A stretch of DNA of 64,000 bases from an uncultured Chloroflexia bacterium (GCA_963825525.1 CAWGTN010000002.1:1376001-1440000), one strand, 5' to 3'. Counted from the stretch's first letter, positions 18,101 through 24,100 are shown. Numbers are program-made.

Positions 18101-21100
18101 CTCGGCGATGTCGGTGCCGGAGACGGCGGCCGACCTCATCGGCTTCCCGGTGGCCGGGCTCATCGTGACCGCGTTGAGCGGCGTGATCGGCGCCGCATTC
18201 ATCCTGGATGCCGGGACGTACGTGGTATCCGCCGTCCTCATCTGGGCGATGCTCATCCCGCGCCAGGTTGCCGAGCCGGCCGAACGGCTGTCCATCGGCG
18301 GTGTGTGGCGCGAGATGCGCGAGGGGTTTGCCTTCCTATGGGCCGAATCGGCGCTGCTCTCGAACACGTTGCTCTCCACGCTGGCCCAGGTCGCGGTCGG
18401 CGCGGAGATCGTCGTCAGCCTCCTCTACGCACGGGACGTCGTGGCTCGCGGCGCGATGAGCTTCGAGCAGATGTACGCGCTCCTGCTCACCGCCATCGCG
18501 GTCGGGAGCGTGGTGGCCGGCGTGGCGGTCGGCGCCATCGGCGATCGAATCCCCAAGGGACCGATGGTGATCGCGGGCTTCCTGGGAATGGGGCTGTCCC
18601 TTGTCGCGGCGGGGCTCGTCACCGATCCGATCCTCGCCATGATCGCGTTCTTCTTCACCGGCGCGACGAACATGCTCTTCATCATCCCCACCGTGACGCT
18701 GTTCCAGCAGCGGACGCCGCAGCGCCTGATGGGCAGGGTGGTATCGAGCCGCCAGGCGCTGGTCTTCGGGTCGATCGCAACCTCGATGGGCCTGTCCGGC
18801 TGGTTGGCCGGCATCCTCGGACCGGCCGCAGTGCTGATGATCAGTGGCGGCATGTGCGCCGCGGCCGGGGTCATCGGCATCGTGGTGCCGCCCATGCGGA
18901 ACGCCCGCTGAACGAGCGATCTGCTACTCTGCGCGCGCCGTGGGACTGATTCTCGACCTGGCGGTCGCGGCCCTCGCGCTGCTCGTCATCGCTTCGCTGG
19001 CCATGCTGGCCTGGACGCTCGGCATCAGTGCCACGAGGGCGACCCGCGAACGGCGGCGGCAGGTCGAGGAGGATCGCCGATCCATCGCGCGGACGGAAGA
19101 ACGCGTTCGGTCCGCCGCCCGACGAACGTCGGCCAAGCTGGCTGAGCTCGCGGCGCGAACAACACCGACACCTGGAGAGCGACCCGACGCATGACGAAGA
19201 GCAGCCAGACGCCGAAACCTGAGGATCGCGCCGAGCGCGGATACCGAGGGGCACTCCCCGCGCAGGATGACCACCTCGCCAAGCCGTGGATTCTGACCGT
19301 GGCCGCCATCTTCCTGCTGGTGCTTCTCCTGTCCCTCGTGGGAATTCCGTCCTCCCTGATCCCCGATCCGACACCGGTGCCTCTGCCCTCGACCCCCGCT
19401 TCCAGCTCGGTCGAGCCCTCGGCTTCGGCTTCGGGGTCGGTGTCTGCTTCGCCTTCCGCTTCGGCTTCGGCTTCGGCTTCGGCCAGTCCTTCGCCGTAGG
19501 GTCGGCGCGAGCCGATGTTTCGGCTGCCGCGTGGCCCTGAAGCCGTCGCCGGCGCCCCTGCGCCGATATTTCAGGCGCCCGTCCTCGTGAGACGCGCCCC
19601 GGGGCGCCCTCCACGCTCACCACCGACCGAAATATCGGCGGCACGGCGCCTGAGGAACCCGGAGGCCACCGCCCGGCCGAAATATCGGCGTCGGGCGTCT
19701 TGGCACTCCGGGGACCGACCCGGCCTGCTCAGCCCACGGTCTGCGGCATTCTCCGCGGACGGATCCACAGCAATCCGTCGGCTCCCAGTGGCCGACCGCC
19801 TCTGATGGCGCCCAGCACCTCTCGTGATGTCCCGGGGAGTGCGGTCCCCACGAGCCGAGCGTGGGGCTCAAGGGCTGCGCGATTCCGCCTCGTGTCCTCG
19901 ACGGCCATGACCAGACGCACCGGCCGTTCGTGGCGCGCGGCGAGGTAGTCTCGCTTCTGCACGTTGCGCCGATACTGCGCCTGGAAGTCGACCAGCCTTC
20001 GGTCGATCTCGATGTCGATGATCTCGAGCGGGCCGTAGAGCACGACATCGCATGCCTCCCCGTGCTCGCCGGCGGGCAACTCGAGCGCCACGGTCCAATG
20101 CTGGGTGGCCAAGCGTCGGATGTGTTCCGCAACGGTGAGCTGACCGCTGTCGCGGAGGCCGATCGGGCGGGCGCGGTAGGCGCGCAGAACGATGTCGATC
20201 CCCACGGCTTGCCCCACCGCGCAGATCGTGGAGATGCTGACGCCGGGCTCGCCAAACTCCACGCGGCGCTCGGTGTCGGGCGAGACACCGGCTCTCCGGC
20301 TCGCGGTCACGCGAGTCATTGCCTGCTCCACCCGAGCGAGACGAATCTCCTGGCCGATCGACCCCGCCTGCGCGCGAGCCCGGCGTGCCCCGGCCCTCCG
20401 CTGGCTGGGGCGTGTGACGTGAGCCATTCGGTGATCTTGCCGATGGGGACGTATCCGCGGCTTACCGGCGGGTTGTTCGGAATGGGCTTTCGGCCGTTTC
20501 CGGCGCGCCGATATCTCGGCCGCTTCGTGGCCTGGGCTTGATTCCGGCGCCCCTGCGCCGATATTTCATGCGCCGGTCCTCGTGAGAGGAGCCCCGGGGC
20601 GCCCTCCACGCTCACCACCGACCGAAATATCGGCGGCACGGCGCCTGAGGAACGCTCGGGCCACCCCCCGGCCGATATATCGGCCCGCGGCGAAGCGCCT
20701 AACCGTCACAGTGTTGTACGGAATCCGGACAGGTGCCATACTCACGCGGCTGCTCATCCCTGCGGGTTGACGAGCGCACCCACCACTGGAGGGCGGAATT
20801 CAGTTGGCCGAGACTCAGCGATCCGTGCTTGTCGTCGACGATGACGCCGATATCCGCAAGCTGCTCGAGGACCTCCTGACCGAGGAGGGTTACGCGGTCC
20901 GCCTGGCACCCGACCGGCGCCGAGGCGGCCGAACAGATCACCGCGGACCTCCCGGACCTCGTGCTGATGGACGTCAAGCTCCCCGACCAGGACGGCATCA
21001 CCCTGCTTCGGCAGCTGAAGCGCGAGCACAGCGAGCTCGAGGTCATCGTGATGACCGCGTTCGGCGGCAGCTCGAGCGCCATCAAGGCCATGGAGCACGG

Positions 21101-24100
21101 GCGCGTATGACTACGTCACGAAGCCCTTCGAGATCGACGACCTGCTGGCCACCTTCAAGCGCGTGTTCGAGCACGCCGACATGAGCAACGAGGTCAGCGC
21201 CCTTCGCCTCGAGCTCGGCAAGCGCGAAGCCGAGCGCGAGCGGATCGTCGGCAGCAGCAAGCCGATGCTCGAGGTCTTCAAGCTCATCGGCAAGGTGGCC
21301 CCGTCGGACGCAACCGTCCTGATCACCGGGGAGTCGGGCACCGGCAAGGAGCTCATCGCCGAGGCGCTGCATCGGGCCAGCAAGCGCAACCCGCATCCGC
21401 TCGTCAAGGTGAGCTGCGCCGCGCTGCCGGAGTCGCTGCTGGAGACCGAGCTGTTCGGCCACGAGAAGGGCTCGTTCACCGGCGCCATGACCATGCGCAA
21501 GGGCCGATTCGAGAGCGCCAACAAGGGCACGATCTTCCTCGACGAGATCGGCGAGATGACGCTGGGCACCCAGACCAAGCTGCTGCGCATCCTCCAGGAG
21601 CGCGAGTTCGAGCGCATCGGCTCCAACACGCCGATCAAGATCGACATTCGCGTCATCACGGCCACGAACCGCAACCTCGCCGATGAGGTCAAGAACGGCA
21701 AGTTCCGCGAGGACCTCTACTACCGGCTGAACGTCATCCACATCCACATGCCGCCGCTGCGCGAGCGCAAGGACGACATTCCGCTGCTGGTCGAGCACTT
21801 CCTGGTGAAGTTCCGTCACGCGGCGGGTGCCATCCCCACGGCCATCAGCGAGGAGGCGCTCGAGCGGCTGGTCGACCACGACTGGCCCGGCAACGTGCGC
21901 GAGCTCGAGAACGCGATCGAGCGGGCCGTGGTGCTGTCGCGGGGCAACCCGATCACGGTTGAGCACCTGCCGTTCAGCGAGGATCGCGGGGCCCCGGAGC
22001 GTGCCACGTTCGCGGAACGGCGAACCAAGCTCGAGGGTGACGAGGCCGCGCTCTCCGGTCGGCGCGACGCCCTCGACGCGGACGAGGCCGACGCCGATGC
22101 GCGGGACGCCGCCGACACCGAATCGAACGGCGATGGTGCGTTCAAGGCGCAGGTGTCGGCGCTCGAGCGACAGCTGATCAAGGAGGCCCTGGATCGGGCC
22201 GGCGGGAACCGCTCGAAGGCCGCCGAAGACCTCGGGATCTATCGGCGCCTCCTGTACGCCAAGATCAAGGAATACGGGCTGGGCGAGTAGTAGTCCGGCG
22301 TTTTCGGGCTCGGGTCCGGGGCTCGGGTCCGGGGTCGGGGCTCGGCGTCTTCGATATATCGCGGGAAATGCACAGGAACGGTCCGCCGCCGCGCCGTTCC
22401 CTCGATACTTCGAGCGCCTCAACGCTGGAAGGGCTCGCGGGCGCGCACTTTACGCTCCGCAGCACTCGATAGATCGCGGGTTCCGCCCTCGAACACGCCG
22501 CCAAGTGACAATCCCGCGATCTATCGAGCTGAGCGGAACCTGGTAAGCGGCCGAAAATTGGCGCCCGCCACACTTCCAAGGCATGAGATCCCGTAGCAGC
22601 CGACGAAGAGCGCGCGTGCAGAGCGAACGCATCGGCGCAGAGATCACGCTCGCGCGGACGACGTTGGCGATGTCGGCGGAGCGGGTTGCCGCGAGAGCCG
22701 GCGTATCGTCGTCGACGGTGTGGCGGATCGAGCGCGGAGAACCGGGCCTGACGCTCACCTCCATTTCCGCCGTGGCCGAGGCCGTCGGACTCGACCTCGT
22801 GCTCCGGGTGTACCCCGGAACCCCGCCTTCACTGAGGGACACGGGACAGCTCGAGCTCGCTGAGCTCATCGTCACCCGCGCCGCGCCGACTTGGCAGCCG
22901 ACGATCGAGCTGCTGGTCGGTCAGCACGGTGAGTCCATCGACCTTGCGCTGTTCGGCTCACTCGAGGTTTGGGCCGTGGAGATCGAGCGCATGGCAACGG
23001 ACTTCCAGGCTCAGTATCGAAGGGCCGATCAGAAGCGAACGACGTTGGCGGCGGGGCATCAGCGCCAGACGCGTCTCGTGATGGTGGTCGAGGACTCGCG
23101 TCAGAATCGGCGGGTGATGGGAGCGCACCGGGATCTGATCGGACGAGCGCTTCCGGCGGGCTCGCGCGAGATCTTCCAGGCACTGGAACGCGGCGTGCCG
23201 CTGGGCCGCGACGGGCTGCTGTGGGTTCGCCGGCCTCGCAGGCCTCGCAGGGCTGGGCCAATCCCAGCGGGGTCTACTCGATAGATCGAGTGCAAGTGCA
23301 CGTGAGGGCCCGTCTGAGTGCCGTTCCCGCGATATATCGACTGTCGCTACGCTTAAGCCGCACTCGGACGGGCGCTGCACGCTCCCAGCCCTCCGATATA
23401 TCGAAGGAACGCCGCGCGGATCGGCCTCTATGGGAACTGCCCGCGATTTATCGAGAGAATCGGGCCCAGCACAGCCCCGGTGGTATCCTTCTTGCCACTC
23501 CAACAGGCACGAAACACCACGAAGGGCGGAAATTTCCCCATGTTCAGCCGCGTTCGAATCGCGATCAGATTCTTCTTCGTCGGGCTGGCCGTCGGAGTGC
23601 TCCTGGCCCCCCGCAGCGGCGAGGCAACTCGCCGAATGGTGCGTGAGAAGGCCGACCGCATCCTCAACGACGTCCTGGATGCTGCCTCGCTCGGCACCGT
23701 CGACACCGGAGGCGAGGGTATCGACGAAGAGGCCGATGCACCACGCCGCGCCACGCGCTCCGCGAACGGTGGCCGCACCAAGAGCCGTGCCGCCAGCACC
23801 AGCGCGAGCACCGGCGCAGGCACGAGCACCAGCGCCCCGGCGAGCTGAGCCACCAACCTCAGACGTGATCTGACCGATGCGCTGGCCGCGTTCCCCGCGG
23901 CCTCGCAATTCGGAGGAACGTGCCGCCCGCGATCGGGAGCGGATGGTGTCGGATCAGCTCGTGGCGCCGCGGGATCACCGACCCGGAGGTGCTTGCCGCC
24001 TTCGAGCGGGTTGAGCGCCATCGGTTCGTGGACGACGGCGACCCCTACGGGGACCACGCCCTTCCGCTCGGCTCCGGCCAGACCATCTCCCAGCCGTACG

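What a model noticed while it worked through the whole genome (the two positions that open the first line are those of the whole stretch)
19508..23458. Four-box palindromic repeat family flanking an HTH-PD-(D/E)xK nuclease gene (REPIN/RAYT-like, without a Y1 transposase) [...]
G000 carries 29-32 intergenic copies of a 176-184-nt palindrome built on four TCGATATATCGA boxes. Two paralogous genes (C2:1395729-1396319 and 1398616-1399284) encode an XRE-type HTH plus a NucS-like PD-(D/E)xK domain, and each lies between two copies. The same gene-element adjacency holds in every relative checked. I propose the protein is the cognate enzyme of the repeats, as RAYT is for REPINs. Activity and mobility are untested.
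Evidence so far: Census: nhmmer gives 32 loci and CM R1 gives 29 loci over all tiles. Hairpin: -70.8 to -115.4 kcal/mol; 76.9% of cells pair against at most 47% when slid, and covariation beats 500 of 500 shuffles. Genus: 34 of 41 genomes, from 0 to the cap of 65 two-strand matches, with 0 in G017. Flanking: all 20 of 20 loci from 16 other genomes have a flanking hit, 13 on both sides. The same holds by coordinates in G151, G091, G134 and G083. All 11 of 11 class genomes with a close homologue have the element, against 2 of 109 others. Protein: only HTH_31 in Pfam; AlphaFold pLDDT 87.3; Z 10.7 to NucS 2vld_B. No PF01797 match.
(Added by a program. Inside this text positions count along the whole contig: contig position 1,376,001 is position 1 of the stretch shown here. 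"Call 12" and the like, gene names such as g00115 and contig names such as C1 are that model's own, and its searches are not shown. The text may have been shortened before it was handed on; [...] marks where a part breaks off. The agent that wrote the report below was given it as the finding of a first reader that could run no searches.)

Follow-up and report, generated by a model that had tools for sequence, protein, structure and literature searches.

The report
Nuclease genes paired with own palindromic repeats
In this soil Chloroflexota genome, three related genes for a DNA-binding nuclease each sit between two copies of their own short palindromic repeat, which is also scattered between other genes, so this looks like a new kind of enzyme-and-repeat partnership whose action has never been tested.

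Summary
The repeat family and its link to the gene are real. G000 holds about 30 intergenic copies of a 177-nt element with four TCGAT-NN-ATCGA boxes at rigid 50/64/50 spacing. Two paralogous genes, p1 and p2 (51% identical), each lie between two copies. The protein is an XRE-type HTH fused to a PD-(D/E)xK nuclease fold (NucS-like, Z 11.2) with invariant E109, D120 and E133. A homodimer is predicted through the HTH part.

I add three findings:
- A third paralogue (30% identical) is flanked by a different 150-nt palindromic repeat with 13 copies, and each repeat family is concentrated near its gene.
- Several more distant homologues in other genomes carry their own boxes on both flanks.
- Copies are gained and lost between species, yet boxes and spacing persist where the rest of the sequence has randomised.

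I found no copy-specific hairpin covariation in four tests. Adjacency held in 9 of 11 relatives, not all. Co-occurrence within the genus does not discriminate.

The p1 and p2 genes are syntenic and not mobile. Dispersed copies are only about 68% identical. No target duplication was seen.

My best reading is a cognate nuclease and repeat pair that follows RAYT/REPIN logic with a different enzyme and reads double-stranded boxes. Binding, cutting and mobilisation are all inferred.

The parts
19512..19688 (.). Element A, the A/B subfamily copy next to the 3' end of p1. Boxes: CCGATGTTTCGG, CCGATATTTCAG, CCGAAATATCGG, CCGAAATATCGG.
   Evidence: It is 86% identical to B over 183 nt.
19729..20427 (-). 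p1: XRE-type HTH plus PD-(D/E)xK protein, 232 aa. The start codon is uncertain.
20508..20683 (.). Element B, upstream of p1, in direct orientation to A.
   Evidence: (D1).
20804..22290 (+). NtrC-type sigma-54 activator gene lying between the two modules. Its receiver domain is read in three frames. It is a neighbour, not shown to be part of the system.
22351..22527 (.). Element C, upstream of p2. Its last box lies 55 nt before the ATG.
22583..23284 (+). p2: XRE-type HTH plus PD-(D/E)xK protein, 233 aa. Invariant residues are E109, D120, E133 and R146. A dimer is predicted.
23278..23454 (.). Element D. Its first box overlaps the stop codon of p2.
5019..5195 (.). Solo family-1 element between two co-directional genes.
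   Evidence: It is present at the same site in 1 of about 25 relatives' loci that cover the site (L029, G051).
7277..7455 (.). Solo family-1 element.
1053..1137 (.). Half copy of family 1, matching model positions 9-93.
2122..2298 (.). Copy of repeat family 2, the family that flanks the third paralogue at C2:2005813-2006502 outside the window.

Best explanation
WHAT IT IS
A family of HTH-nuclease proteins in which each paralogue is paired with its own family of short palindromic intergenic repeats.

HOW IT PROBABLY WORKS
- The protein dimerises through its XRE-type HTH part.
- It binds the palindromic boxes in double-stranded DNA. These are TCGAT-NN-ATCGA for p2, CCGAW-AT-WTCGG for p1, and CGGCCA-N5-TGGCCG for the third paralogue.
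- It brings a PD-(D/E)xK active site (E109, D120, E133, with R146 and K151 on the next helix) to DNA beside the boxes.
- Cutting or nicking there promotes duplication, loss and recombination of the elements. This includes recombination between the two copies that flank the gene.
- The gene itself stays at a fixed chromosomal place.

The logic is that of RAYT with REPINs, but with a different enzyme class and without a demonstrated hairpin substrate.

SHOWN
- The repeats and their rigid architecture.
- Three gene-repeat pairs in one genome.
- The fold and the conserved acidic residues.
- Synteny of the genes.
- Presence/absence of elements between species.
- Retention of boxes in place.

INFERRED
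- Binding, cleavage, and any role in spreading the elements.
For: 1. Three paralogue-repeat pairs in G000.
- p1 lies between A and B, p2 between C and D.
- p3 lies between two copies of an unrelated 150-nt repeat that has 13 copies.
- In a control of 150 random G000 genes, the only flank-to-flank matches of 100 nt or more were p1 and p3 themselves.

2. Distant homologues.
- 5 of 20 loci share an exact 10-mer at least 3 times across both flanks, against 5 of 400 control genes.
- In addition there is L065 (G017) with four 24-nt boxes and L075.
- The G016 motif occurs 4 times at the gene and 3 times elsewhere.

3. Proximity to the gene.
- 10 of 30 family-1 loci lie in C2:1.341-1.495 Mb around p1 and p2.
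- 5 of 13 family-2 loci lie within 10 kb of p3.

4. Protein.
- pLDDT 93.7 with an alpha-beta-beta-beta-alpha-beta core.
- NucS Z 11.2, XisH-like 2okf Z 9.7, AF1548 Z 9.6.
- E109, D120, E133 and R146 are invariant in 76 sequences.
- Homodimer ipSAE 0.55 against a best control of 0.00. That mark was reached by 20 of 30 solved homodimers and 1 of 23 single chains. Runs agree in 68% or more of contacts; pLDDT is 77 or more. The interface lies in residues 2-82, as in solved HipB-type dimers, so the pass may reflect that likeness.

5. Turnover between G001 and G000.
- Of 17 G001 element loci, 6 are shared with G000.
- 5 are clean empty sites in G000, with spacers of 9-52 nt.
- At one site G001 has a single element where G000 has A-p1-B.

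6. Occupancy at two other sites: 1 of about 25 loci and 2 of 29 loci.

7. Constraint in place. At shared loci, conserved columns are 0.75-0.91 identical. Variable columns are 0.32-0.55 identical, against 0.36 for unrelated pairs.

8. Box type tends to follow protein type: 2 of 2 p2-like loci have T..A boxes and 4 of 5 p1-like loci have C..G boxes.
Against: - There is no test of binding, cutting or movement.
- Dispersed copies are old. Median identity is 0.68 in G000 and the best dispersed pair is 0.74. Only tandem neighbours and the A/B pair exceed 0.80. REPIN populations are described as replicating populations; no young dispersed copies were seen here.
- No target duplication or sharp insertion boundary could be read at 5 empty/filled pairs or at the module sites.
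- Contigs of strains about 96% identical keep every element laid, and no listed joint skips one.
- G010 (86% complete) has 49 two-strand element matches but no homologue at E <= 0.001. G023 has 14 matches and none.
- 2 of 11 close homologues (G018, G021) show no flanking element.
- 13 of 20 distant homologue loci show no flank repeats by my criteria.
- The protein tree is unresolved, with 8 of 9 forks open. The box-type exception is G006, which is unpublished.
- The canonical lysine of (D/E)xK is not conserved at its usual place.
Confidence: 0.5

Rival explanations
1. The elements are host-useful arrays of binding sites, for example for chromosome organisation, insulation or global regulation. 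The HTH protein is their DNA-binding factor. Its nuclease fold serves another purpose or is inactive. Copies arise by ordinary recombination and tandem duplication, not by the protein's action.
For: - Boxes and spacing are retained in place while the other columns randomise.
- Spacing is rigid in 26 of 26 copies.
- There are no young dispersed copies. The only recent duplicates are tandem.
- The genes are syntenic.
- The boxes look like operators for an HTH dimer.
- There is no hairpin covariation.
Against: - The acidic triad is invariant in 76 sequences, which argues for catalysis.
- Neighbour orientation shows no promoter bias: 5 convergent, 5 divergent and 15 tandem among 25 solo loci, by crude gene calls.
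- Occupancy of a given site across the genus is very low, and G017 and G020 have no copies at all, which is odd for an important host function.
- Each paralogue has its own repeat family.
Confidence: 0.25
2. The elements are a decaying MITE-like family once moved by a transposase that is now lost or lies in unassembled DNA. The HTH-nuclease genes merely sit in repeat-rich spots, or are repressors left over from the parent element.
For: - The consensus ends are inverted boxes.
- Copies are old.
- Half copies exist, at window 1053-1137 and C2:499470.
- Elements occur in genomes without a homologue, such as G010 and G023.
- The MAG is 92% complete.
Against: - The same gene-between-two-copies pattern holds for three unrelated box types in G000 and for further ones elsewhere.
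- Uniform neutral decay would not keep 72 columns at 0.80 identity while 60 columns fall to 0.36.
- No Y1 transposase was found. Other transposase families were not searched.
Confidence: 0.12
3. The elements act as single-stranded hairpins in RNA or DNA, for example as terminators, mRNA stabilisers or REPIN-like substrates. This is the structure the first reader proposed.
For: - Element C folds at -46.8 kcal/mol as DNA, z -4.0 against shuffles.
- RNA-parameter energies are -65 to -103.5 kcal/mol.
- The consensus is a palindrome. Sliding the partner drops pairing from 65.5% to 30-45%.
Against: - Chimeras of different copies fold as well as native copies (mean z 0.04).
- Mirror pairing is 57.6% against 55.2% with permuted partners.
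- RNAalifold gives -6.5 kcal/mol with no covariation.
- The shuffle controls are not exceeded.
- No Rfam family was matched.
Confidence: 0.08
4. The boxes are enhancer sites of the sigma-54 activator encoded between p1 and p2.
For: Elements B and C flank that gene.
Against: - G017 keeps the activator gene with spacers of 132 and 34 nt and has no elements anywhere.
- The third paralogue and its repeat family lie 600 kb away.
Confidence: 0.03

Closest known systems
REPIN / RAYT (REP-associated tyrosine transposase) systems
   Same: - A gene that is vertically inherited and single-copy per lineage, flanked by its own palindromic intergenic repeats.
- Tens of solo copies.
- Several gene-repeat pairs in one genome.
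- Repeats are few or missing where the gene is missing (G017, G020, G021).
The background comes from the search listing and abstracts of PMC3337134, PMC3116915 and 10.1101/2022.05.22.493013.
   Different: - The enzyme is an HTH plus a PD-(D/E)xK fold, not a HUH Y1 transposase.
- The element is 177 nt with four boxes at fixed spacing, not 20-40-nt REPs.
- There is no GTAG or CGTC tag at the ends of the consensus.
- There is no support for a selected hairpin.
- Copies are about 68% identical, and I saw no identical dispersed copies.
NucS / EndoMS mismatch endonuclease
   Same: The C-terminal PD-(D/E)xK domain superposes at Z 11.2, rmsd 2.7, over 101 residues. Foldseek also lists 2vld_B and 5gke_A.
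   Different: - Identity is only 13%, and there is no sequence-level match to any solved chain outside the HTH.
- The N-terminal domain is an XRE-type HTH instead of the NucS N-terminal domain.
- The lysine of the motif is not at the usual position.
MITEs and their parent insertion sequences
   Same: - Short, non-coding, intergenic elements with inverted ends.
- Presence/absence between species.
- Tandem and half copies.
   Different: - No target duplication was seen.
- No autonomous parent is known.
- The gene is flanked by whole elements rather than by single ends, and it does not move.
- Internal boxes are kept in place.
HipB and restriction-modification controller (C) proteins, which are XRE-type HTH dimers on palindromic operators
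   Same: - The N-terminal 80 residues match at Z 9.5-10.6.
- The predicted dimer uses the same region.
- The boxes are short palindromes.
   Different: - Here the HTH is fused to a nuclease fold.
- The sites form four-box arrays at about 30 places in the genome rather than one operator.
XisH-like protein (2okf, fdxN element excision controlling factor)
   Same: The nuclease-fold domain matches at Z 9.7 over 109 residues. From recall, XisH is an accessory factor of a DNA excision event.
   Different: It has no HTH. There is no sequence similarity, and no link to dispersed repeats is known to me.

Membership tests
REPIN/RAYT system | Enzyme is a HUH Y1 transposase (Pfam PF01797) | tested here: not met
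   Pfam on p1 and p2 gives only HTH families. PF01797 has 0 matches in G000, while the control genomes ring.
REPIN/RAYT system | REP units of 20-40 nt with a GTAG or CGTC tag (title and abstract of PMC3733652, from the search listing) | tested here: not met
   The consensus ends are CTCGATATATCG...CGATCTATCGAG. The unit is 177 nt with four 12-nt boxes.
REPIN/RAYT system | Two inverted units that form a hairpin | tested here: inconclusive
   The consensus is palindromic and folds. There is no copy-specific complementarity.
REPIN/RAYT system | Gene flanked by its repeats, single-copy and vertically inherited | tested here: met
   Flanks. Synteny of p1 and p2 next to the sigma-54 activator gene across the genus.
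REPIN/RAYT system | A replicating population with many near-identical copies | tested here: not met
   Median pairwise identity is 0.68. The best dispersed pair is 0.74 in G000 and 0.78 in G001.
PD-(D/E)xK nuclease superfamily | Alpha-beta-beta-beta-alpha-beta core with conserved acidic residues on strands 2 and 3 | tested here: met
   Helix 87-99, strands 105-112, 117-124 and 128-135, helix 141-159, strand 162-170. E109, D120 and E133 are invariant. Z is 7-11 to many nucleases of this fold.
PD-(D/E)xK nuclease superfamily | Lysine two residues after the second acidic residue | tested here: not met
   The position after E133-x is E, M, F, S or T in the alignment. K151 (90% or more) and invariant R146 lie on the following helix. 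That relocated lysines occur in this superfamily is from recall.
PD-(D/E)xK nuclease superfamily | Metal-dependent phosphodiesterase activity | not testable with these tools
   This needs an enzyme assay.
NucS/EndoMS | NucS N-terminal domain and sequence-level homology | tested here: not met
   The structural match covers only chain residues 126-233 of 2vld_B. A profile search of solved chains finds HTH proteins only.
XRE-type HTH (Pfam HTH_31 / HTH_3) | Score above the curated cut-off | tested here: met
   p2: HTH_31 31.2 bits (cut-off 27) and HTH_3 26.4 bits (cut-off 23). p1 is below the cut-off at 22 bits. The structure matches HipB and C proteins at Z 9.5-10.6.
MITE | Target-site duplication and a related autonomous element | tested here: inconclusive
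   No duplication is readable at 5 empty/filled pairs, but the flanks are too diverged to be sure. Transposase families other than PF01797 were not searched.

The most novel reading that the evidence does not exclude
This is a second, independently evolved class of resident nuclease and repeat partnership in bacteria. A sequence-specific HTH plus PD-(D/E)xK enzyme maintains and slowly spreads its own family of box arrays, which it reads as double-stranded DNA. Several co-evolving enzyme-repeat pairs live in one small genome. Recombination between the two flanking copies lets the gene drop out, leaving a solo element, as seen in G001.
Probability: 0.33. Interest if true: 0.85.

Novelty: new variant of a known kind. 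Interest (0 to 1): 0.72.

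Why it matters
REPIN/RAYT is so far the textbook case of a repeat population kept for long periods by a single resident enzyme gene. A parallel system built on a different nuclease fold, in an uncultured soil lineage (Limnocylindria), would show that this way of life has arisen more than once.

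It would also give an uncharacterised family a testable function. That family has 873 clusters at 50% identity with E <= 0.001, and its members are named only 'XRE family regulator' or 'hypothetical'.

It would provide naturally matched sets of protein and 12-17-bp site. Such sets are useful for studying how HTH specificity evolves.

There is a practical point too. These repeats appear to break short-read assemblies: most homologues lie on contigs of 1-3 kb.

Tried and rejected
- Single-sequence AlphaFold2 gave a useless model (pLDDT 41.9). It was replaced by the alignment-based model.
- Rfam at gathering thresholds: 0 matches in the window.
- NCBIfam, PADLOC and PHROGs matched only the HTH part.
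- Protein Atlas on residues 85-225 found only unnamed Chloroflexota clusters.
- Sequencing runs: no RNA holder is listed. All runs are Logan contigs.
- Four runs were laid on window 3700-23650. Contigs of related strains carry the elements at 5000, 7300, A and B. None of the 15 joints shown skips an element, and 240 more joints were not shown. This says nothing firm about mobility.
- The G000 against G001 empty site at window 5000 could not be aligned across the spacer. The G000 and G051 elements at that site are as diverged as unrelated copies.
- A protein tree to test whether box type follows protein clade was unresolved.
- Family-2 HMM on 20 distant loci: 1 weak hit. Those genes carry other boxes.
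- The origin-proximal idea: dnaA lies at C2:1520182 and the skew minimum is near 1.45-1.53 Mb. Family 2 clusters at 2.0 Mb around its own gene, so nearness to the gene explains the clustering better than nearness to the origin.
- Literature: four searches gave REPIN/RAYT background only. I saw listings and the starts of abstracts and read no full text. I found nothing on this box, this protein family or Limnocylindria repeats. Supplements were not consulted.

Full report
WHAT IS THERE

The window is G000:C2:1376001-1440000 of a 2.58-Mb, 68.5% G+C, four-contig genome. Names attached to homologues place it in Chloroflexota, Candidatus Limnocylindria.

The box TCGATATATCGA with up to one mismatch occurs 10 times in the window against 0.10 expected. 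In the region of the finding there are four elements, each with four boxes:
- A, 19512-19688
- B, 20508-20683
- C, 22351-22527
- D, 23278-23454

A and B enclose gene p1 (19729-20427, minus strand). C and D enclose gene p2 (22583-23284, plus strand). The two proteins are 51% identical.

An HMM built from nine full copies finds 29 loci in G000. A BLAST search with A adds C2:618158. Box-to-box spacing is 50-52, 63-66 and 50-51 nt in all 26 copies examined.

By a crude GC3-based gene call, the copies fill intergenic gaps. Neighbouring genes are convergent at 5, divergent at 5 and co-directional at 15 of 25 solo loci.

ANATOMY OF THE ELEMENT

The alignment of 24 copies shows strong conservation at these places only:
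- the four boxes
- short GGGA/TCCC stretches next to the boxes
- TTCAC/GTGAA near the outer boxes
- a central GCGTGA...TCACGC

Nothing is conserved outside the outer boxes. The consensus is a palindrome.

A, B and three further copies (C2:618k, 499k, 1004k) form a subfamily with CCGAWATWTCGG boxes and a different interior.

THE HAIRPIN CLAIM DOES NOT HOLD IN G000

I ran five checks.
- Pairing of mirror positions within a copy is 57.6%, against 55.2% when the right half comes from another copy (z 1.6). The centre gives z -1.3.
- Native copies fold no better than chimeras made from the left half of one copy and the right half of another. Mean z is 0.04. Only A and B stand out, because they belong to a different subfamily.
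- RNAalifold gives -6.5 kcal/mol with a covariation term of +0.13.
- For the full mirror structure, the count of structure pairs gives 65.5% paired against 64.9% shuffled (104 of 500 shuffles as high). The covariation score is 0.172 against 0.164 (94 of 500).
- A single copy does fold better than its shuffles (-46.8 kcal/mol as DNA, z -4.0), as any palindromic consensus would.

The symmetry therefore lies in the conserved positions. That is what symmetric protein binding to duplex DNA predicts. It is not in compensatory changes.

THE PROTEIN

Pfam, NCBIfam, PADLOC, PHROGs and a profile search of solved chains recognise only the N-terminal XRE-type HTH.

With a 76-row alignment, AlphaFold2 gives pLDDT 93.7 and a C-terminal alpha-beta-beta-beta-alpha-beta core. 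VIA-align ranks these matches to that domain:
- NucS 2vld_B first: Z 11.2, rmsd 2.7, 101 residues, model residues 88-218
- an XisH-like protein, 2okf: Z 9.7
- AF1548: Z 9.6
- the nuclease domains of Can2 and Card1: Z 7.4-8.6

Foldseek lists NucS and EndoMS at E about 5e-3.

E109, D120, E133 and R146 are invariant and K151 is nearly so. The residue at the usual lysine position varies.

A homodimer is supported by the model. The ipSAE is 0.55 against a best control of 0.00. That mark was reached by 20 of 30 solved homodimers and 1 of 23 single chains. Runs agree in at least 68% of contacts, and pLDDT is at least 77. The interface lies in residues 2-82 and resembles solved HipB-type dimers, so the pass may reflect that likeness.

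The wider family has 873 clusters at 50% identity with E <= 0.001 and 182 with E <= 1e-10. Where a phylum is known it is mostly Chloroflexota. Members are named only as XRE regulators or hypothetical proteins, and most sit on contigs of 1-3 kb.

THE GENE-REPEAT LINK IS STRONGER THAN REPORTED

G000 has a third paralogue at C2:2005813-2006502, about 30% identical to p1 and p2. It lies between two copies of a different palindromic repeat of about 150 nt. That repeat is built on GGGAGTAACGGCCAC...GTGGCCG-type boxes and has 13 copies, one of them in the window at 2122-2298.

In a control of 150 random G000 genes, the only flank-to-flank matches of 100 nt or more were p1 and this third gene.

Each family is concentrated near its gene:
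- 10 of 30 family-1 loci lie in C2:1.341-1.495 Mb. Leaving out the four that touch the genes, 6 of 26 lie within 100 kb, where about 2 would be expected if loci were spread evenly.
- 5 of 13 family-2 loci lie within 10 kb of the third gene.

I also fetched 20 loci of more distant, mostly p3-like homologues from 14 genomes.
- 5 of the 20 share an exact 10-mer three or more times across both flanks, against 5 of 400 control genes.
- L075 has a 101-nt flank match.
- L065 (G017) has four 24-nt boxes, two on each side at the same 41-nt spacing.
- The boxes differ from locus to locus.
- In G016 the element has perfect inverted ends. The motif occurs four times at the gene and three times elsewhere.
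- The other 13 loci showed nothing by these criteria. Most loci from outside the genus are among them.

Among close homologues, 9 of 11 loci have family-1 elements beside the gene, 7 on both sides. L002 and L008 end at contig edges. L010 (G018) and L012 (G021) have none.

Box type tends to follow protein type. Two of 2 p2-like loci have T..A boxes. Four of 5 p1-like loci have C..G boxes, including two p1-like genes that sit at the p2 locus. The exception is G006, which is unpublished. The protein tree is unresolved, so this is only a tendency.

THE GENES DO NOT MOVE, THE ELEMENTS TURN OVER

p1 and p2 flank the same sigma-54 activator gene in most genomes of the genus. The states seen at these two sites are:
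- module present
- a solo element (G001 at the p1 site, G010 at the p2 site)
- a broken gene without elements (G021)
- empty with short spacers (G017 at both sites with 132 and 34 nt, G020 at the p1 site, G023 at the p2 site)

A solo element in place of element-gene-element is what recombination between the two direct copies would leave.

For solo elements, I compared 17 G001 loci with G000:
- 6 are shared with G000.
- 5 are clean empty sites in G000 with spacers of 9-52 nt. Three of these five G001 sites hold tandem arrays of two or three copies.
- The rest are ambiguous.

The window-5000 site is occupied in 1 of about 25 relatives' loci that cover it. Another site is occupied in 2 of 29 loci, G001 and the unpublished G006.

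No target duplication could be read, but the spacers are too diverged to exclude one.

Dispersed copies are old. Median identity is 0.68, and the best dispersed pair is 0.74 in G000 and 0.78 in G001. Only tandem neighbours (0.82-0.95) and A/B (0.87) are closer.

At loci shared by G000 and G001, the 72 conserved columns are 0.75-0.91 identical. The 60 variable columns are 0.32-0.55 identical, against 0.36 for unrelated pairs. So boxes and spacing persist in place over times that randomise the rest. Neutral decay of dead copies would not do this.

Contigs from four public runs show that strains about 96% identical keep the elements.

DISTRIBUTION

Model R1 finds the element in 21 of 24 genus genomes. 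G017 (94% complete), G020 (86%) and G021 (78%) have none. It finds one weak match among 16 other genomes of the class.

I crossed this with the protein search.
- 11 of 12 genomes with a homologue at E <= 1e-30 have elements.
- 10 of 12 genomes without such a homologue also have them, among them G010 (86% complete, 49 two-strand matches, no homologue).
- Many of those 10 genomes are incomplete, and the genes sit next to repeats that break assemblies.

Even so, phyletic co-occurrence is weak evidence here, and the genomes are not independent. These tallies include the unpublished G006. Searches also include G050.

READING

The most economical account is a cognate pair. The dimeric HTH reads the palindromic boxes on duplex DNA, and the conserved nuclease site acts next to them. 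This has kept several co-evolving protein-repeat pairs in the lineage.

Whether the enzyme spreads the elements, only trims or recombines them, or serves the host through them cannot be decided from sequence. I put about 0.7 on cognate binding. I put about 0.5 on the fuller statement that the nuclease activity drives element turnover.

It works like RAYT/REPIN in outline. It is not a member of that family, because the enzyme class, the repeat signature and the population structure all fail the tests.

Noticed in passing
window 20804-22290: The NtrC-type sigma-54 activator gene between p1 and p2 has its receiver domain spread over three reading frames, with shifts near 20915 and 21100. Contigs of one public run lack one base at 21098. 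In a four-contig assembly these may be indel errors rather than a dead gene.
   Followed up: partly
window 19409-19495: A low-complexity GCTTCG-type repeat lies at the end of a Pro/Ser/Ala-rich ORF (19191-19499), just before element A. The read-laying tool skipped it as a repeat.
   Followed up: no
G000 C1:17358-17585 and C2:1466482-1466710: These two element copies are nearly identical, flanks included. That suggests a segmental duplication or redundancy between contigs. One was dropped from my statistics.
   Followed up: no
window about 22390: Contigs from three different public runs (records 15, 23, 31) all begin at 22390-22391, inside element C. This hints that assemblies branch there.
   Followed up: no
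L085 (G001:C120), L083, L088: G001 carries tandem arrays of two or three elements that are 82-95% identical to each other, at sites that are empty or single in G000. Tandem duplication is the only recent copying mode I could see.
   Followed up: partly
L078 (G034:C10:782812-784898), positions 1399-2007: A 69-nt-period direct-repeat array, CRISPR-like in spacing, lies just downstream of a distant homologue of the HTH-nuclease.
   Followed up: no
G000 C2:1520182-1520664: dnaA lies here, and the cumulative GC skew has its weak minimum near 1.45-1.53 Mb. The window therefore lies roughly 100 kb from the likely origin.
   Followed up: partly
window 20715-20745; G017 and G020 orthologous spacers: A stretch GTTGTACGGAAT.CGGAC.GGTG.CATACT upstream of the activator gene is conserved in G000, G017 and G020, whether or not the p1 module is present. 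It is probably that gene's promoter.
   Followed up: no
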